Virus record (IMG/VR): IMGVR_UViG_2667527789_000016 | Direction: 5' to 3' (one strand) | From: a virus | Lineage: Duplodnaviria > Heunggongvirae > Uroviricota > Caudoviricetes | Length of the DNA: 4,955 nucleotides | Shown: one piece after another, positions 1 through 4,955 of the stretch | Layout: each line of letters starts with the position of its first letter | Position numbering within the stretch: the stretch's first letter is position 1 | The notes under the pieces: model-generated | What the model was told of the DNA's origin: nothing | Databases searched by the model: none | Seen by the model: only the letters and a program-made list of their open reading frames with translations | Made by a program: the position numbers and the translations under genes

Positions 1-1425
1 GTGGAATTATTCAGATTCACTAAAGTAAAAATTGCAGAACTGCCAACGCCGGAGCATGGGCAGGCCGAATATGGTGATACGGAGGTTAACGGGCTGCGTG
101 TCCGTGTAGGTTCGTCAGGTGTGAAAAGTTTCTGCATTTCCCGTAAGCGTAACGGAAAATTTATTCGTGCAACGCTGGGGCGTTTTCCTGATCTGAGTGT
201 GGACAATGCCAGGGCTAAAGCTATGGAGCTTCTCGGAGAAGTAGCCACAACGGGGATAAATCCGAACACAGCGAAACGCATGAACAACAAGGCCATGATA
301 ACGCTGAGTGAGGCACTTGAAGCCTACATAAAAAATCGTGGCCACCGTCTTAAACCCGCCACAGAAAAACAGTACCGCAGCATATTACAGAATTATTCCG
401 GTGACTGGATGGCGCATACCCTCGCTAGTATTTCCCGCGAACGTGTGGAACAACGGCATAAGGCCATCACTGATGGGGCTGTATGGTTCGGTGCTGATAA
501 AACCACGTTACGGGCTGGTGTTGGTACAGGAAGCAAGGCACAGGCCGATTTATGGGCGCGTGCGCTGCGTGCTGTGTGTCGGTTTGCGCATGATCATTAC
601 CGTGATGATGCGGGTAATACTCTTTTACCGGATCCGCCGACTCTGGTACTGAGCACCAAACGCCAGTGGCACGGAACGGTAAGAAAAACGGAACGTATCC
701 GTCTGCATGATTTTCCCCGTTGGTTTGCTGCTGTAGCTGCTGTACGTGACCAGGGCGAACAGGAAAGGGATGATATAGCGGTTACGGTATGTGATGCCGT
801 GGAAATGGCGCTTTTTACCGGACTGAGAAAATCAGAAATTTTTGGCCTTACGTGGGATCGCGTGAATATGGGCGGTCGTTTTTTCTGGATAGACACCACG
901 AAAAACGGGGATCCGCTCGAATTGCCGATTACTGATACGTTGCGGGAAATGTTCCGCCGCAGGCTGAAAATAAAAAACGCTGATGATGTTCTGGTGTTTC
1001 CTGGTGTGAAGGGAGTGATTCAGGAGACACGGCACATCATAGACCGGATAAGCGCGGCTACCGTTCCAGAGTCGAACGATGAAATGCTCTCCCCTGTACC
1101 ATTCAAATGGCACGATGCGCGCCGGACGTTCGGGACGGTTGCCGAACTGGTGGGCGTGGGTAATTACATCCTCAAGCGCCTGATGAATCACCGCACTATG
1201 CGAAGTGCTGACGTAACGCAGGGGTATTTACATTTTGGTGCTGATGAACTGCTGGAGCCAGCGTCACGGATAGAACGGGCAATTCTGGAGCATGCCGGGC
1301 TGGTGGAGAGTAAAAAATCTATCGATGCGCAATTGCTTTCTGCACTGGAGAGCATGGACGATGATGAAAAACGCCAATTAATTTTCAAAATCATAAACAA
1401 AAATTTAGAGGTATCGTCTAAATGA
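1..1425 (+). CDS. int: Tyrosine site-specific integrase (phage/P4-type, N-terminal arm-binding domain plus catalytic domain); possibly 5'-partial, GTG at position 1
   Basis: 474-aa ORF. The N-terminus (FTKVKIAELP...GLRVRVGSSGVKSF...RATLGRFPDLSVDNARAKA) resembles the arm-type DNA-binding domain of phage integrases. The C-terminal half carries the catalytic signature: R in TGLRKSE, H-x-x-R in KWHDARRTF, and a candidate catalytic Tyr in TQGYLHF. The true start may lie upstream of the window. Confidence 0.9.
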   Translation: MELFRFTKVKIAELPTPEHGQAEYGDTEVNGLRVRVGSSGVKSFCISRKRNGKFIRATLGRFPDLSVDNARAKAMELLGEVATTGINPNTAKRMNNKAMITLSEALEAYIKNRGHRLKPATEKQYRSILQNYSGDWMAHTLASISRERVEQRHKAITDGAVWFGADKTTLRAGVGTGSKAQADLWARALRAVCRFAHDHYRDDAGNTLLPDPPTLVLSTKRQWHGTVRKTERIRLHDFPRWFAAVAAVRDQGEQERDDIAVTVCDAVEMALFTGLRKSEIFGLTWDRVNMGGRFFWIDTTKNGDPLELPITDTLREMFRRRLKIKNADDVLVFPGVKGVIQETRHIIDRISAATVPESNDEMLSPVPFKWHDARRTFGTVAELVGVGNYILKRLMNHRTMRSADVTQGYLHFGADELLEPASRIERAILEHAGLVESKKSIDAQLLSALESMDDDEKRQLIFKIINKNLEVSSK

Positions 1426-2042
1426 AAGTTTGGGATGTAGTAGATGATGATACAAGAATTGAATTATATGATTATCTTGATCAAGTCGAAAAAGAAATGA
1501 GCGAGCATATATATGAATTGAAAGATAAATTTAAATATTATAGAAAAGCCGAAAGGAAAAGAATAGCAGCAAAGATTGATAAGAAAGAATATTTAGCGTT
1601 AGACAAAACAGGGGAGATAAACATAGGTCATAGTGCTAATGTATTTCTGAAATCCATCTTAATACTAGAGCTACTTGGATATAAAAATACTGCTGAGGAT
1701 CTTTCATGGGTATACAAAAGAGCCTGTATAGCCTCAAAAGGTGGTGGCAAAGTTATTAGATTAATATCTGATGGTGTTATCAAAAGAAGAAGAAGTGAAG
1801 CCGCCTCCGGCCCCCGCCACCATTTACATGATGAGATAGTCGCCATCATGAAAGCCACATGGAAGAAAGAACCAGCACTATCCAAAACAAAAATGATTGC
1901 GAAGCTGTCGCGTCGATATGAGGGCCGGATAAGCGAGGAAACAATCAAGTGCTGGATAAAAAGTGAAAAACTAGCCCCGCCGCCACCACCTGACAAAAAG
2001 TACAAAAACACCGAACTGGTGATCCCGCCAGAGTACGCATAA
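1422..2042 (+). CDS. Hypothetical protein, AT-rich cargo gene (206 aa); C-terminal part resembles a short HTH-like segment followed by a PPPPP tract
   Basis: ATG at 1422 overlaps the integrase stop (ATGA, 1422-1425); GAGG at 1408-1411. The first ~380 nt are very AT-rich (about 30% GC by eye) against roughly 50% in flanking genes, then composition returns to GC-normal near 1800. No recognisable family from sequence alone. Confidence 0.6.
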   Translation: MKVWDVVDDDTRIELYDYLDQVEKEMSEHIYELKDKFKYYRKAERKRIAAKIDKKEYLALDKTGEINIGHSANVFLKSILILELLGYKNTAEDLSWVYKRACIASKGGGKVIRLISDGVIKRRRSEAASGPRHHLHDEIVAIMKATWKKEPALSKTKMIAKLSRRYEGRISEETIKCWIKSEKLAPPPPPDKKYKNTELVIPPEYA

Positions 2043-2055
2043 AAAATTTTTTATC

Positions 2056-2086
2056 AGCCAGGGTAAAAGCAGCTATTCCCCTGGCT
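2056..2086. other. Hairpin (8-bp stem AGCCAGGG / CCCTGGCT, 15-nt loop) just downstream of the cargo ORF stop; possible weak terminator
   Basis: Inverted repeat 2056-2063 / 2079-2086. Preceded by AAAAAATTTTTT (2041-2052), which would supply a U-run for minus-strand reading, but there is no strong T-run after it on the plus strand. A direct repeat TTCCCCTGG sits at 2076-2084 and 2095-2103. Confidence 0.25.
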
Positions 2087-2175
2087 TACCTGCTTTCCCC
2101 TGGGAAAATCAGCTTTTCACCTTACCGCCCTCACAGCAAAAACCTAAAGTAGCTCACGGTAACAATAGGTAATAC

Positions 2176-2388
2176 GTGGAGTTACTTGTGAACCTAATCA
2201 ATTCTCAAGAAAAAATGACCCGCAAAGAAGCCGCCGAGCATTTGGGGGTAAGTGTCCAGACTCTTGCTAACTGGGCGCATACTGGCAAGGTAAAAATCCC
2301 TTTCCATAAGCTGGGGCGCAAAGTGCTGTATATGCGCTCTGATCTCGATACTTATCTTGCATCCACTCGCAGAACGCAGACAGCGTAA
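2176..2388 (+). CDS. Small HTH DNA-binding protein of the excisionase/AlpA/Vis type (start may be the in-frame ATG at 2215)
   Basis: The sequence TRKEAAEHLGVSVQTLANWAHTGKVKIPFHKLGRKVLYMRSDLDTYL fits the excisionase-family HTH pattern (helix-turn-helix, then a Gly-Arg wing, then an acidic DxxL motif). It lies immediately downstream of the integrase, as in many integrative elements. GTG 2176 has a weak AGG at 2168-2170; ATG 2215 has no clear SD. Confidence 0.75.
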   Translation: MELLVNLINSQEKMTRKEAAEHLGVSVQTLANWAHTGKVKIPFHKLGRKVLYMRSDLDTYLASTRRTQTA

Positions 2389-2408
2389 GGGGGGAGCGAT
2401 GCACATAA

Positions 2409-2434
2409 CAAAAAGCGCCCCGTTACCGGAGCGC
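2409..2434 (-). other. GC-rich hairpin (GCGCCCCG-TTAC-CGGAGCGC, 7 of 8 bp) with a U-run on the minus strand; terminator-like in minus orientation, possibly also serving the upstream plus-strand gene
   Basis: Stem 2415-2422 / 2427-2434. The plus strand has CAAAAA (2409-2414) before the stem, so the minus-strand RNA has stem followed by UUUUUG. Contains the CGCCCCGTTAC motif repeated at 2891-2923. Confidence 0.35.
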
Positions 2435-2530
2435 CCTTGCGAACAATTAACCTGCTGCGAAAAAATTGGATCAGTGCAGGGGAATTATATCAACTGTGTG
2501 AAGAAGCGCCACAATTGCCGGATAACAGGC

Positions 2531-2558
2531 AAAGAAAAGGCCACCTGTCACGGTGGCC
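2531..2558 (-). terminator. Rho-independent terminator of the minus-strand small gene
   Basis: Stem GGCCACC (2539-2545) / GGTGGCC (2552-2558) with a 6-nt loop. On the minus strand the stem is followed by TTTTCTTT (complement of 2531-2538). It sits about 30 nt downstream of the stop of the 2769..2590 gene. Confidence 0.55.
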
Positions 2559-2589
2559 AATGTGATCAGTGTGGTGGTTTGCTGGTGGA

Positions 2590-2769
2590 TTATTCCGCTT
2601 CTTTGGTCTTGCGGCGCTGGCGGCGTTTTATTTCGCCGCGCATGGCAGTAACGATAAATTGCGCGTCTGTTTCGTTTTCTTCTTTTACCAAATTCATTTC
2701 ACTTAAAACGTCTAGAGGTACTCTAGCTGTTTTTTGTTGTGACTTGTTGTTTGTTGTACCTGTTGGCAT
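2590..2769 (-). CDS. Small basic protein (59 aa), putative DNA-binding regulator of the element (candidate repressor); function unproven
   Basis: ATG (complement of 2767-2769) is preceded by AAGGAG at 8-nt spacing (complement of 2778-2783). Protein is MPTGTTNNKSQQKTARVPLDVLSEMNLVKEENETDAQFIVTAMRGEIKRRQRRKTKEAE with a strongly basic tail. It has its own terminator (2531-2558) and is divergent from the plus-strand operon. The longer 117-aa ORF (to 2943) would run through the operator and hairpin region and is not favoured. Confidence 0.6.
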   Translation of the reverse strand: MPTGTTNNKSQQKTARVPLDVLSEMNLVKEENETDAQFIVTAMRGEIKRRQRRKTKEAE

Positions 2770-2795
2770 CTCTGTTCTCCTTACTGTTAGGTGGT

Positions 2796-2835
2796 GTTCA
2801 GTATACGGAGAAAAAAAAATAAAAAAAGACTTGAA
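2796..2835 (-). promoter_or_regulatory. Candidate promoter for the minus-strand small gene (-10 TATACT, T-rich upstream tract)
   Basis: Minus-strand TATACT (complement of 2800-2805) lies about 30 nt upstream of the ATG. A long T-tract on the minus strand (plus-strand A-run 2809-2827) could act as an UP element. No good -35 hexamer, so this is weak. Confidence 0.3.
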
Positions 2836-2880
2836 GTGCAAGTCACCTAAAAGTAATCTAGATTTCAAGGTGACTTGCAC
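2836..2880. promoter_or_regulatory. Operator-like perfect inverted repeat GTGCAAGTCACC-N21-GGTGACTTGCAC with a perfect palindrome AATCTAGATT in the spacer
   Basis: Arms 2836-2847 and 2869-2880 are exact reverse complements (12/12). The spacer holds a 10-bp perfect palindrome at 2855-2864. It lies in the divergent intergenic region between the small regulator gene and the plus-strand operon. Confidence 0.45.
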
Positions 2881-2883
2881 CAA

Positions 2884-2923
2884 AAAGGCAACGCCCCTTA
2901 CTGTTGGGCCAGTAACGGGGCGT
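2884..2923 (-). other. Long GC hairpin (13-bp stem with one bulge, 6-nt loop) followed by a U-run on the minus strand; terminator-like or leader RNA structure
   Basis: ACGCCCCTTACTG (2891-2903) pairs with CAGTAACGGGGCGT (2910-2923). The plus strand has CAAAAAGGCA before the stem, giving UGCCUUUUUG after the stem on the minus strand. Shares the CGCCCCGTTAC motif with 2415-2434. Confidence 0.35.
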
Positions 2924-2959
2924 CTAACCACAAACGATAGCAATAGTATCGAGGTAGCT

Positions 2960-3166
2960 ATGTTAAATCATATCACACACCCGCAAGGGCGGGACTCACA
3001 CAACCTGAATAAATACATCTGGCGTTTTATCGCCCTGAGCACGGCACAACCGCGCGTAATCCACATCGAGGCCACCAGCGAACAGGAAGCACGCCAGCAA
3101 TCCCCGGCTGGCTGCGTGATGGTATTCGCTGCCCGTATTCGCCAGGAGGTAGGCCATGTGCAATAA
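2960..3166 (+). CDS. Hypothetical small protein (68 aa), first gene of the plus-strand operon
   Basis: ATG 2960 with GAGG at 2951-2954. It is the in-frame tail of the 2357..3166 ORF after excluding the part that overlaps the regulatory region. Its stop overlaps the next gene start by 11 nt. Confidence 0.45.
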   Translation: MLNHITHPQGRDSHNLNKYIWRFIALSTAQPRVIHIEATSEQEARQQSPAGCVMVFAARIRQEVGHVQ

Positions 3167-3395
3167 AACCACACCGGACGCAGCAGCCGCCGCGCTCACT
3201 ACGCTGATGCACGCGCTTATTGATATTTCTGTTATTGCTGACATGGCGCATAAGCACGCCACCAGTGAAACAGAATATGCAGGGGCTTTCGTTCCTCATT
3301 CGCTGGCGGTTATGCAACTTAGTGCTGATATGGCTCTGAATGAGGCCAAAGCTATCCTGATTGCTGATTGTGAAAATGGGGGGGGTTATGCGTGA
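3156..3395 (+). CDS. Hypothetical small protein (79 aa)
   Basis: ATG 3156 preceded by AGGAGG (3144-3149) at 6-nt spacing. Overlaps the upstream and downstream ORFs in a coupled arrangement. Confidence 0.55.
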   Translation: MCNKTTPDAAAAALTTLMHALIDISVIADMAHKHATSETEYAGAFVPHSLAVMQLSADMALNEAKAILIADCENGGGYA

Positions 3396-3609
3396 TGATC
3401 GTTTTAATTCCCTGAAACAGGAATTTTCCGGCGTTCCTGATGATGCGGCTGATGCGCTTTCGTCAATATCTGAAATTATGCGGGTGGCTTTTTTCTTTCT
3501 TTGCACTGATGAGCACAGAGATACAGGGCTAAATATTCTTGATATTGCCGCTAACTATGCTGATTTCGTGACAGAGGTTATTTTAAGAAAAGCGACGGAC
3601 GGGGATTAA
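3388..3609 (+). CDS. Hypothetical small protein (73 aa from ATG 3388; alternative starts at 3376 or TTG 3361)
   Basis: ATG 3388 overlaps the stop of the upstream ORF (ATGCGTGA) and follows a G-run (3378-3385). The stop at 3607-3609 is one nt before the next start. Confidence 0.5.
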   Translation: MRDDRFNSLKQEFSGVPDDAADALSSISEIMRVAFFFLCTDEHRDTGLNILDIAANYADFVTEVILRKATDGD

Positions 3610-3610
3610 T

Positions 3611-3844
3611 ATGCGTGATATTTACCACGAAACAACAGATCGCGTATTTCTTGCACTTTCTCACAGTGAAAATATGATGGAAATATTGCGCATATGGCTT
3701 GAAACACTTGGCGACAATGAACGCGACAAACAAAAATCAAGAATTGTCACGGCATTAATAACGCTTCTTGAGCCTGTAATAATGGAAATACAAGAAATAG
3801 ACCAATTGCACGACAGATATAACGAACAGCACACCGGAGAATAA
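3611..3844 (+). CDS. Hypothetical small protein (77 aa)
   Basis: ATG 3611 preceded by GGGGA (3601-3605). Shares the initiation context GGGG-TTA-ATGCGTGAT with the preceding ORF. Confidence 0.55.
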   Translation: MRDIYHETTDRVFLALSHSENMMEILRIWLETLGDNERDKQKSRIVTALITLLEPVIMEIQEIDQLHDRYNEQHTGE

Positions 3845-3849
3845 AAATA

Positions 3850-4149
3850 ATGAAACTTAAATATTCTGGCTTAACTGCCAGTGGCAACACTCACCCTAAA
3901 TTTACGCGCGGTGATATTTACCGCGACCAGTACGGCGGCACGGTAATGATTAAGGGCGTGGCGGGACGGTGCGTAACTTACCGCCGTGAAGGTTACGAAT
4001 ATGATTGCGTGATGCCTGTTTATCAGTTCCGGCGTGATTTTTCTCTGGTACAGACCGCGCCGCATAACGTGCCCACCAGCAACGCCAGGGCACGGGCAAA
4101 CATCCAGAAGCTGAAAACCATGATTAACGGATTCAGGGGTAAACAATGA
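3850..4149 (+). CDS. Hypothetical protein (99 aa)
   Basis: ATG 3850 with GGAG at 3836-3839. Its stop overlaps the start of the downstream ATPase gene (ATGA at 4146-4149). Confidence 0.55.
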   Translation: MKLKYSGLTASGNTHPKFTRGDIYRDQYGGTVMIKGVAGRCVTYRREGYEYDCVMPVYQFRRDFSLVQTAPHNVPTSNARARANIQKLKTMINGFRGKQ

Positions 4150-4955
4150 AACTGGCACCGAACGTAAAACGATTACCGAAAGACAAATACACCGATGCGA
4201 TTATTTTTGCGGGTATTGATGCTCACTCATTCGCAGAGCATTACATCATTGCACAGGCCAAAAAAGCAGGCGATCCAGTCCCTCCCGTTTATCTGGGGCG
4301 TTATCAGTTAAGCGAACTGGATAACCTCCAGATTGTTGATGATGGGCGATACAGGGCGACGGTGATACGCGCCGGAAATATTGAAGAGCCGCAGCTGTTA
4401 ACCATCGCCACGAAACTGGCGATCGCCGGAGTCCAGGAGGCGCGGCTACTTTCTGAAAATTTCGAATTGCTGGAGGAATGGAGCGACCAGCTTCCACGGC
4501 TTAGGGAGGCATGGGAACGCGGGGAAAGCCTGGTCATGAAAAAAATCCCCCAGCGAAAAACCACGCTACCGATGAGCGTTGGATCTACCGGATACGACAC
4601 ACAGCTTGATTACGTGGTAAAGGGGATTATTCCGGCATCGTCGCTTTGCAGCATATACGGGGCGAGCGGTTCCTATAAATCATTCCTTGCCGGATCGTGG
4701 GCGTGTCACGTTTCCACGGGCCGCCAGTGGGGAGGCCGCAGGGTGGCGCATGGCGCTGTTCTCTATGTGGTTGGTGAAGGCGGTATCGGCGTTCCGCGTC
4801 GTGTAAAGGCCTGGGAGGTTGTGCACGGTGAGCAGGTGAAAAATCTGTATCTGGTAAACCGTCCCATCTTTCCGGCTGTCCCGCTTGATGTTGATGAACT
4901 GATTATTGCTGCCAGTCAGGTGGAGAGGGAAACAGGTAAACCTGTTCGCATGATT
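4146..4955 (+). CDS. RepA-like AAA_25 family P-loop ATPase (putative replicative helicase of the element), 3'-partial, preceded by an uncharacterised N-terminal domain of about 125 aa
   Basis: ATG 4146 with AGGGG at 4135-4139. The open frame runs to the window end (270 codons). Residues DYVVKGIIPASSLCSIYGASGSYKSFLAGSWACHVSTGRQWGGRRVAHGAVLYVVGEGG match the RepA/AAA_25 pattern (a 'DY/WLVKGLLP...' motif, then a Walker A-like GxxGxxKS, then '...VLYV..E'). Family assignment is from memory of that pattern, not a search. Confidence 0.8.
   Translation, partial: MKLAPNVKRLPKDKYTDAIIFAGIDAHSFAEHYIIAQAKKAGDPVPPVYLGRYQLSELDNLQIVDDGRYRATVIRAGNIEEPQLLTIATKLAIAGVQEARLLSENFELLEEWSDQLPRLREAWERGESLVMKKIPQRKTTLPMSVGSTGYDTQLDYVVKGIIPASSLCSIYGASGSYKSFLAGSWACHVSTGRQWGGRRVAHGAVLYVVGEGGIGVPRRVKAWEVVHGEQVKNLYLVNRPIFPAVPLDVDELIIAASQVERETGKPVRMI

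What the first reader, a model, noticed from the sequence alone, without database searches (positions are those of the whole stretch)
1422..2042. Low-GC cargo gene wedged directly against the integrase
The ORF at 1422..2042 starts inside the integrase stop codon (ATGA). Its first ~380 nt are far more AT-rich than anything else in the window, and composition snaps back to GC-normal near 1800, inside the same ORF. This is the signature of recently acquired cargo at an integrase-proximal variable site, the kind of position where satellites and islands are known to carry anti-phage or anti-defence genes. The 206-aa product has no family I can recognise; its C-terminal third (KTKMIAKLSRRYEGRISEETIKCWIK followed by PPPPP) looks like a small HTH-like module.
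Basis: partly seen in the sequence, partly recalled or inferred. Interest (0 to 1): 0.6.

Follow-up and report, generated by a model that had tools for sequence, protein, structure and literature searches.

The report
Integrase-coupled two-module satellite gene
The AT-rich gene abutting the integrase is not foreign cargo but the resident, undescribed "integrase-overlapping" gene of a family of enterobacterial phage satellites, probably a DNA-binding control protein whose front half is swapped between elements like a cassette.

Summary
ORF 1422..2042 starts in the integrase stop (ATGA). A 441-nt block (1354..1794) has GC 0.31 against 0.49 elsewhere, and composition recovers near 1800 inside the ORF. 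The cargo or defence reading does not hold. The 206-aa protein belongs to a compact, unannotated Enterobacterales family (112 representatives among 1.84 billion proteins). Its members always sit in one slot: P4-type integrase, then this gene (start -3 to +17 nt from the int stop), then an AlpA-like HTH_17 gene, in PICI, cf-PICI and P4-like satellites. The AT-rich front half is a family-wide trait. The protein has two modules. The C-module (about 85 aa) is conserved, basic and winged-helix-like. It is co-inherited with the intergenic DNA downstream, which carries a palindrome and repeats about 20 nt apart. The N-module is acidic, helical and hypervariable, and reassorts freely with C-modules. 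The recombination breakpoints lie in the integrase tail (about 1357) and the interdomain linker (about 1800). The closest described thing is "iolg", the integrase-overlapping gene of Vibrio PICMI satellites. I propose a DNA-binding accessory protein or regulator of the int-alpA switch. A helper-phage-sensing repressor is the most novel reading not excluded.

The parts
1..1425 (+). Tyrosine integrase (474 aa; Arm-DNA-bind_3 plus Phage_integrase). Its last ~17-22 codons belong to the swapped AT-rich block and carry the ribosome-binding site of the next gene.
   Evidence: Pfam E 9e-14 and 8.5e-14; annotated in NZ_AP042564; tails compared.
1357..1800 (.). AT-rich exchanged cassette (GC about 0.31): the integrase tail plus the N-module of the 206-aa protein. 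The left breakpoint is in the conserved DDEKR motif of int and the right breakpoint is in the interdomain linker.
   Evidence: DNA alignment with strain 47-1826; composition; blastn segments 1-1373 and 1783-2388 against L002.
1422..2042 (+). Integrase-overlapping gene: 206-aa member of an unannotated Enterobacterales satellite family.
1422..1787 (+). N-module (aa 1-122): all-helical, including a ~42-residue helix. It is hypervariable, and this allele has no relatives outside its own 90% cluster.
   Evidence: AF2 model, pLDDT 83.6; N-identity mean 29%; N-domain-only search; N-modules acidic in 88% of members.
1788..2039 (+). C-module (aa 123-206): conserved and basic (+8 here). It has three helices (aa 133-149, 155-165, 172-181), then a PPPPP linker and an LVIPPEYA tail. 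Residues T146 and L199 are invariant; G86, W147, P151, S154, W178, P186 and V200 are at least 90% conserved.
2056..2086 (.). Near-perfect palindrome (15-nt arms, 87% complementary) 14 nt after the stop codon. It is either a candidate operator or a terminator-like hairpin without a T-run.
   Evidence: the repeat finder I2; the terminator scan did not call it.
2069..2124 (.). Direct repeats about 19-21 nt apart: GCAGCTATTCCCCTGG, CCTGCTTTCCCCTGG and a degenerate TCAGCTTTTCACC. These are candidate binding sites, allele-matched to the C-module.
   Evidence: TTCCCCTGG twice at 2076 and 2095. The pooled lag analysis over 9 allele classes peaks at 20 nt, z 3.93 against a 99% family-wise null of 3.31. 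The window alone is not significant on copy count (P 0.11). Co-inheritance table.
2147..2187 (+). Inverted repeat or leader hairpin whose 3' arm contains the alpA Shine-Dalgarno sequence (GGAG) and abuts the start codon.
   Evidence: RNA fold -13.9 kcal/mol, z -2.65. An equivalent hairpin with different, still complementary arms occurs in other alleles.
2188..2388 (+). AlpA-like HTH_17 gene. The probable start is GTG 2188 (an ATG in strain 47-1826). The record annotates ATG 2215 and the longest ORF starts at 2176.
   Evidence: Pfam HTH_17 E 4e-13.

Best explanation
ORF 1422..2042 is the resident integrase-overlapping gene of the int-X-alpA 'integration zone' of an enterobacterial phage satellite (PICI/cf-PICI type). 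It is not cargo. It is made together with the integrase through ATGA translational coupling. Its conserved, basic, winged-helix-like C-module is proposed to bind the allele-matched palindrome and ~20-nt-spaced repeats that lie between its own stop codon and alpA. That would set the state of the int-alpA switch, by controlling alpA expression and/or by assembling with Int and AlpA on DNA. The acidic helical N-module is a separately exchangeable specificity or oligomerisation domain. It is replaced as an AT-rich cassette by recombination between the integrase tail and the interdomain linker, and this is what produces the composition step inside the ORF. Shown: the family, the fixed slot, the two-module mosaic, co-inheritance of the C-module with the downstream DNA, and the family-wide AT bias. 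Inferred: DNA binding, the binding sites, the regulatory role and its sign.
Confidence: 0.55

Rival explanations
1. It is an excision or integration cofactor that acts through protein contacts with Int and/or AlpA at the attachment sites, as proposed for PICMI IOLG. The downstream repeats would be irrelevant to it (for example AlpA or terminator elements).
For: The anatomy is identical to PICMI iolg. Deleting iolg abolishes PICMI115 excision and transfer, and the authors propose an Int-IOLG-AlpA excision complex (PMC10803314, read). Translational coupling to int suggests matched amounts. The integrase tail is co-swapped with the N-module.
Against: The conserved part is a basic, HTH-like module rather than an obvious protein-binding one. 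The repeats do not follow AlpA or Int. In PICMI115, int alone complemented the int deletion, and the iolg deletion was complemented only with int plus iolg together, so the requirement for IOLG itself is not cleanly separated. Homology to any PICMI IOLG is untested.
Confidence: 0.2
2. It is an interference or exclusion protein. The variable N-module would bind and neutralise a helper or competitor phage protein, and the gene would be kept next to int only for constitutive expression.
For: The N-module is hypervariable and exchanged between elements, as expected for a surface in conflict with phages. Satellites are known to carry interference genes (PMC6092414).
Against: This does not explain the strongly conserved basic C-module or its co-inheritance with the downstream DNA. 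PADLOC and PHROGs give no support. In the held literature, interference genes characterised in E. coli PICIs lie elsewhere in the element (PMC6092414).
Confidence: 0.1
3. One reading: it is recently acquired cargo, an anti-phage or anti-defence gene at an integrase-proximal variable site.
For: Low GC, an abrupt composition step, an orphan N-terminal sequence, rarity of this allele (2 of 5,426 complete E. coli genomes), and a highly diverse interval.
Against: The slot holds the same family across genera. The AT bias is family-wide. The whole 2.5-kb head is equally recent across backbones. There is no defence-model hit. The described dynamic zone lies after alpA (PMC10111431).
Confidence: 0.07
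4. It is a non-functional or mis-called ORF: a chance reading frame or decaying remnant across a recombination scar.
For: There is no annotated function anywhere, and a shadow ORF exists on the other strand (1628..2011).
Against: The frame is intact in 13 distinct alleles. Invariant residues are spread over the C-module. The AF2 model is confident (pLDDT 83.6). There are 112 diverged representatives of conserved length. Where the island is decayed (L023), the gene is broken together with int.
Confidence: 0.03

Closest known systems
iolg / icg (integrase-overlapping or integrase-contiguous gene) of Vibrio PICMI satellites (Barcia-Cruz et al., Nat Commun 2024, PMC10803314)
   Same: A gene of unknown function between int and alpA on the same strand, overlapping the int stop (ATGA is the commonest overlap), in a small int-alpA-primase phage satellite. 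It is highly diverse between elements (13 families among 35 PICMI subfamilies).
   Different: The host clade differs (Enterobacterales vs Vibrionaceae), as do the satellite types (PICI/cf-PICI/P4-like vs minimalist PICMI). No sequence relationship has been shown. Here a single family fills the slot across genera, with a defined two-module architecture and matched downstream repeats, none of which is described for PICMI. The functional data (loss of excision) exist only for PICMI115.
SaPI Stl / Gram-positive PICI Rpr master repressors
   Same: Encoded next to int in a phage satellite. A DNA-binding module is joined to a highly variable domain. In Stl the variable part recognises helper-phage proteins, and allelic diversity sets helper specificity (background in PMC6092414).
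   Different: Stl is transcribed divergently from the operon it controls and has its HTH at the N-terminus. Here the gene is co-directional with alpA and the HTH-like module is C-terminal. There is no sequence similarity, and neither repression nor phage-protein binding has been shown. [quoted passage not shown]
AlpA / P4 Vis / Xis-TorI type recombination directionality factors (HTH_17, Phage_AlpA)
   Same: Small DNA-binding proteins of the same module that bind direct repeats near int and act in excision and/or transcription.
   Different: The protein here does not match HTH_17, Phage_AlpA or excisionase profiles (one of 31 members gives E 0.019 to PF07825). It is 3 times larger and has an extra variable domain. 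A genuine AlpA-type gene lies immediately downstream.
Second HTH of Tc1/IS630, IS481 and ISNCY transposases (Pfam HTH_32, HTH_Tnp_Tc3_2)
   Same: These are the only recurrent, weak sequence similarity of the C-module (aa ~124-193): a three-helix, basic module.
Bro-N network proteins of the PICI 'dynamic zone' (PMC10111431)
   Same: DNA-interactive satellite proteins that evolve by domain swapping.
   Different: They occupy a different zone (after alpA) and have different domains. The family here has no Bro-N, AntA or KilAC match.

Membership tests
PICMI-type integrase-overlapping gene (iolg) | The start codon overlaps the integrase stop (1, 4 or 13 nt; ATGA most frequent) | tested here: met
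   ATGA at 1422-1425. Across the family the start lies -3 to +17 nt from the int stop.
PICMI-type integrase-overlapping gene (iolg) | Lies between int and alpA, co-oriented, in a satellite with an int-alpA-primase core | tested here: met
   Integrase at 1-1425, HTH_17 at 2188-2388, DUF4222 and an AAA_25 primase downstream. The same order is seen in all loci examined.
PICMI-type integrase-overlapping gene (iolg) | Needed for helper-induced excision and transfer | not testable with these tools
   Needs genetics; data exist only for PICMI115 (PMC10803314).
PICMI-type integrase-overlapping gene (iolg) | Sequence homology to one of the 13 PICMI iolg/icg families | not tested
   No IOLG sequence could be obtained. 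The supplements hold only AlpA, and loci fetched with that AlpA were not PICMIs and gave no hit to the family profile. All named members in 20 sampled clusters of this family are Enterobacterales.
Anti-phage defence or anti-defence cargo in a satellite hotspot | Matches a known or candidate defence protein model | tested here: not met
   PADLOC: 0 families at E up to 0.1.
Anti-phage defence or anti-defence cargo in a satellite hotspot | The slot is filled by unrelated genes, or is empty, in closely related elements | tested here: not met
   Of 9 loci reached via int or alpA, 7 have an intact member, 1 a decayed remnant, and 1 (Aeromonas) none in the ~660 bp before its contig ends.
Anti-phage defence or anti-defence cargo in a satellite hotspot | Confers phage resistance or blocks a defence system | not testable with these tools
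   Needs a phage challenge experiment.
Pfam HTH_32 (PF13565) homeodomain-like HTH | Score at or above the gathering threshold (33.7 bits) | tested here: not met
   19.6 bits for the full protein and 21.5 bits for the C-module; only 2 of 31 members match at E up to 0.05.
Winged-helix / HTH DNA-binding fold (structural class) | A three-helix bundle with a recognition helix, superposable on solved wHTH domains | tested here: inconclusive
Stl/Rpr-type satellite master repressor | Encoded next to int and transcribed divergently from the controlled operon | tested here: not met
   The gene is adjacent to int but co-directional with alpA.
Stl/Rpr-type satellite master repressor | Operator sites lie between the repressor gene and the controlled gene | tested here: inconclusive
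   A palindrome at 2056-2086 and ~20-nt-spaced repeats are co-inherited with the C-module. They are weak per allele, and binding is not shown.
Stl/Rpr-type satellite master repressor | A variable domain binds a helper-phage protein, which lifts repression | not testable with these tools
   Hypervariable, reassorting N-module shown; no interaction data.
Recombination directionality factor (HTH_17 / Phage_AlpA / excisionase) | Profile match to an RDF family | tested here: not met
   No HTH_17 or Phage_AlpA hit. One of 31 members gives E 0.019 to PF07825. The neighbouring gene is the HTH_17 protein (E 4e-13).

The most novel reading that the evidence does not exclude
The protein is the missing repressor-sensor of Gram-negative PICIs, a functional counterpart of SaPI Stl. 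It would be made constitutively with Int. Its C-module would sit on the repeats upstream of alpA and keep the satellite silent. Its hypervariable N-module would be the receptor for a helper-phage protein that releases it. Cassette swapping of the N-module would then retarget a satellite to new helper phages without touching its DNA-binding specificity, integrase or AlpA.
Probability: 0.2. Interest if true: 0.85.

Novelty: new member of a known kind. Interest (0 to 1): 0.5.

Why it matters
How helper phages switch on Gram-negative PICIs is an open question. [quoted passage not shown] Current descriptions of the integration zone list only int and alpA (PMC10111431). This work shows that a third, conserved gene with an HTH-like module sits between them in many enterobacterial satellites. 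It has a domain architecture (constant DNA-binding part, freely exchanged variable part) and matched downstream DNA repeats that make it an obvious candidate for that control point. It also gives the Vibrio 'iolg' concept an enterobacterial counterpart in genetically tractable E. coli elements. Practically, it warns against reading low GC next to an integrase as cargo, and it supplies a family profile for satellite annotation.

Tried and rejected
- Foldseek against viral structures gave nothing (all E above 1). The afdb50 library was unavailable.
- A profile search of PDB sequences with the C-module found nothing significant (best E 0.17).
- The search for related loci with the broad alignment failed because no stretch was conserved enough.
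- The one genome-contig scan, run with the integrase, returned only two loci.
- I tried to obtain a genuine PICMI IOLG. The paper's supplements hold only AlpA. The viral-contig scan found nothing. The six metagenome loci were not PICMIs and did not hit the family profile. Homology to PICMI IOLG therefore remains untested.
- RNAalifold on a MAFFT alignment of the alpA leaders predicted no structure, because the allele-specific arms were out of register. I replaced it with per-allele folding against shuffles.
- The simple copy-number test for the intergenic repeats was weak. I rely on the pooled lag test instead and mark the sites as candidates only.
- EcCIMP1_002, the gene between int and alpA in EcCIMP1, is described as about 10% the size of UvrB. 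I judged it too small to belong to this family, without comparing sequences (PMC11773190).
- P0129 (484 aa, repeated HTH, no integrase called on its short contig) was rejected as a member.
- No Rfam family covers the region.
- No homologue of the protein exists in 50,697 phage records, and the best integrase match there is 30% identical.

Full report
**Observation.** The window opens with a 474-aa tyrosine integrase (1..1425; Arm-DNA-bind_3 plus Phage_integrase). The ORF at 1422..2042 starts with an ATG that overlaps the integrase TGA as ATGA, and a GAGG lies 9-12 nt upstream. GC is 0.511 in the integrase body, 0.313 in ORF positions 1422-1795 (GC3 0.216), 0.494 in 1796-2042 and 0.485 in the rest of the window. 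The lowest-GC 441-nt window of the whole sequence is 1354-1794 (0.306), against a minimum of 0.381 elsewhere. The description is therefore correct, with one amendment: the AT-rich block begins inside the last ~22 codons of the integrase, not at the ORF start.

**What the composition step is.** The DNA occurs in full in only 2 of 5,426 complete E. coli genomes. A third genome, strain 47-1826, has a 206-aa ORF at the same place in a differently composed island. The two loci are about 95% identical at DNA level up to about 1357. They are essentially unalignable from there to about 1800. They are then 93-97% identical through the rest of the ORF, the intergenic region and the next gene. At protein level the C-terminal ~85 residues are about 93% identical and the N-terminal ~120 about 25%. 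The step in composition inside the ORF is thus a recombination boundary at a domain junction.

**A family with a fixed address.** A word-indexed search found 24 clusters. An exhaustive profile search of 1.84 billion representatives found 112 (77 at E up to 1e-10), nearly all 186-280 aa. None carries a Pfam domain or a name other than 'hypothetical protein'. All named members in 20 sampled clusters are Enterobacterales: Escherichia, Salmonella, Klebsiella, Raoultella, Citrobacter, Enterobacter, Hafnia, Pantoea, Yersinia, Serratia, Rahnella and Pluralibacter. Pfam, NCBIfam, PHROGs and PADLOC give nothing above any cut-off.

Every true member whose context I fetched, including the weakest profile matches, lies immediately after a 471-497-aa integrase of the same type and before a small HTH_17 gene. 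DUF4222 and a primase lie further on, and one member sits in a P4-like backbone with Ash, the epsilon 'Derepression' protein and an alpha-type primase. The start lies -3 to +17 nt from the integrase stop.

The non-circular test uses 9 loci reached through the integrase or alpA rather than through the gene. Of these, 7 carry an intact member (186-266 aa). One, a heavily frameshifted island, carries a remnant. One, from Aeromonas with a 62%-identical integrase, has no member in the ~660 bp before its contig ends. The identical 206-aa protein heads at least eight mosaic backbones. These have two primase types, three capsid modules and two chromosomal sites, and window block 1..~2558 is at least 99.4% identical in all of them. 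The gene is therefore part of the int-alpA head module, not cargo.

**Low GC is a family trait.** In all alleles the N-terminal part has GC 0.29-0.39. The neighbouring integrase is at 0.49-0.52, or about 0.40 in four loci. Low GC therefore cannot date an acquisition in this island. Why it persists is unexplained.

**Two modules that reassort.** Alignments show a C-module with invariant T146 and L199 and at least 90% conserved W147, P151, S154, W178, P186 and V200. It ends in a proline-rich linker and an LV(I/F)P tail. The N-terminal part is almost free to vary apart from a helix around G86. Among 19 close members, mean identity is 29% for N and 72% for C. The window's C-type occurs with five N-types, two N-types each occur with three C-types, and N and C identities are uncorrelated (Spearman 0.08). 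The window's N-module alone finds only its own cluster among 5.8 billion clusters.

**The DNA downstream.** Immediately after the stop codon the window has a near-perfect palindrome (2056-2086) and TTCCCCTGG twice, 19 nt apart, with a degenerate third copy. Other alleles have their own repeat sets. A simple copy-number test is weak: 3 of 9 allele classes reach P of 0.02 or less, and the window gives 0.11. A lag analysis pooled over nine allele classes peaks at 20 nt, with z 3.93 against a family-wise 99% null of 3.31. Six of nine classes have their best lag at 19-21.

The pairwise table gives a double dissociation. Islands with 94-99% identical Int and 93-95% identical AlpA but 26-27% identical C-modules have unrelated intergenic DNA (window vs L003/L021). 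Islands with only 50-78% identical Int and 65-79% identical AlpA but 67-72% identical C-modules keep the GCTATyCCCC repeat core (window vs L007/L009). C-module and intergenic DNA are co-inherited (86/96%, 93/95% and 98/93%) while the N-module is exchanged independently. Physical linkage is a confound, so I treat the repeats as candidate binding sites only.

**Literature.** The closest described entity is 'iolg', the integrase-overlapping gene of Vibrio PICMI satellites. It overlaps int (ATGA is the commonest overlap), lies between int and alpA, falls into 13 unrelated families of unknown function, and its deletion abolishes excision and transfer of PICMI115. The authors propose that Int and IOLG are constitutive and act with phage-induced AlpA (PMC10803314). 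It is the only paper in the held library that uses the term. For enterobacterial PICIs, the integration zone is described as int plus alpA, with the dynamic, domain-swapping zone placed after alpA (PMC10111431). AlpA is an activator whose helper-dependent induction is unexplained, and a global repressor is 'unclear' (PMC6092414). The cf-PICI paper does not discuss the slot. I could not obtain a PICMI IOLG sequence, so homology is untested.

**Mechanism.** The best-supported reading is an integrase-coupled, sequence-specific DNA-binding accessory protein or regulator of the int-alpA switch, with a constant DNA-binding module and an exchangeable N-module (confidence 0.55). The rivals are:
- a pure recombination cofactor acting through Int/AlpA contacts (0.2);
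- an interference protein (0.1);
- defence cargo (0.07);
- a non-functional ORF (0.03).

The most novel reading not excluded is an Stl-like helper-sensing repressor of alpA (probability 0.2). The PICMI phenotype (loss of excision) argues against a simple repressor. However, that family is unrelated, and the deletion was complemented only with int plus iolg together.

**Verdict.** The cargo or defence interpretation is not supported, while the HTH guess and the idea of horizontal exchange are partly right. This is a new, unannotated family occupying a slot already recognised in Vibrio satellites, with added structure (module reassortment, matched repeats) that makes a long-standing question about Gram-negative PICI induction testable.

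Noticed in passing
window 2147-2187 (and the equivalent position in L003, L004, L007, L009, L010, L012, L017, L020): The alpA leader carries an inverted repeat whose 3' arm contains the Shine-Dalgarno sequence and abuts the start codon. The arms differ between alleles but stay complementary (AGTAGCTCCG/CGGAGCTACT, TATCACCG/CGGTGATA, AGTGACTCCG/CGGAGTTACT). The ~18-nt loop (about GTTGTTAATCAnTAATACA) is more conserved than the arms. RNA folding beats shuffles in 7 of 9 alleles (z -2.65 to -6.2). It could be an RBS-sequestering hairpin or a DNA operator around the promoter.
   Followed up: partly
L004 6937-6970, L025 2873-2906, L020 5713-5750: In these alleles the arms of that inverted repeat read TATCACCG ... 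CGGTGATA (TTATCACC ... GGTGATAA in L020). From memory this is the consensus half-site of the lambda CI/Cro operators. Here the arms are 18-20 nt apart rather than forming a 17-bp operator. Lambdoid phages are known helpers of E. coli PICIs. This is a recalled resemblance only and was not tested.
   Followed up: no
window 2176-2215: The alpA start codon is ambiguous. The longest ORF starts at GTG 2176 and the RefSeq record annotates ATG 2215 (57 aa). GTG 2188, which is an ATG in strain 47-1826 and lies 7 nt after GGAG, fits the other alleles best.
   Followed up: partly
window 1-2558 versus 2559-4955; L001, L026-L033: The int-X-alpA head (1..~2558) is at least 99.4% identical in eight or more islands that then diverge. 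They differ in their post-alpA genes, primase type (AAA_25 vs D5_N/DUF5906) and capsid modules. The window equals the annotated record NZ_AP042564 only up to about 2605, so its backbone is a different mosaic. The real variable zone starts after alpA.
   Followed up: partly
window 1357-1425 (integrase C-terminus): The last ~17 residues of the integrase, after a conserved SMSDDEKRxLLF motif, differ between alleles and are exchanged together with the N-module of the next gene. This could reflect only the embedded ribosome-binding site and overlap, or a functional pairing of the Int tail with the N-module.
   Followed up: partly
L014 1649-2347 and L015: A weak-scoring family member (E 3.9e-5 to the profile) sits in a P4-like backbone (Phage_ASH, Derepression/epsilon, DUF5375, Zn-ribbon/Toprim/DUF927 primase). 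The family therefore spans PICI, cf-PICI and P4-like satellites. P4 itself showed no homologue in the phage collection.
   Followed up: partly
L023 (E. coli A33) 778-2734: This island is decayed. The integrase, DUF4222 and primase genes are frameshifted, and the slot holds two small ORFs, one of which (2456-2734) is a C-module remnant of the family (E 1e-17).
   Followed up: partly
L016 966-2420 (P0129): A 484-aa metagenomic protein with four repeated HTH-like stretches matches only positions 151-195 of the family profile (E 9e-5) and is not next to an integrase. It is probably unrelated, but it hints that the C-module core is a generic HTH unit.
   Followed up: no
window 1628-2011, minus strand: A 127-aa ORF lies antisense to the gene. 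It has no support and is most likely a shadow ORF.
   Followed up: no
cluster of P0032 (member P0134): One member of an otherwise E. coli cluster is labelled as a Bifidobacterium longum MAG protein. This is probably a mis-binned enterobacterial contig.
   Followed up: no
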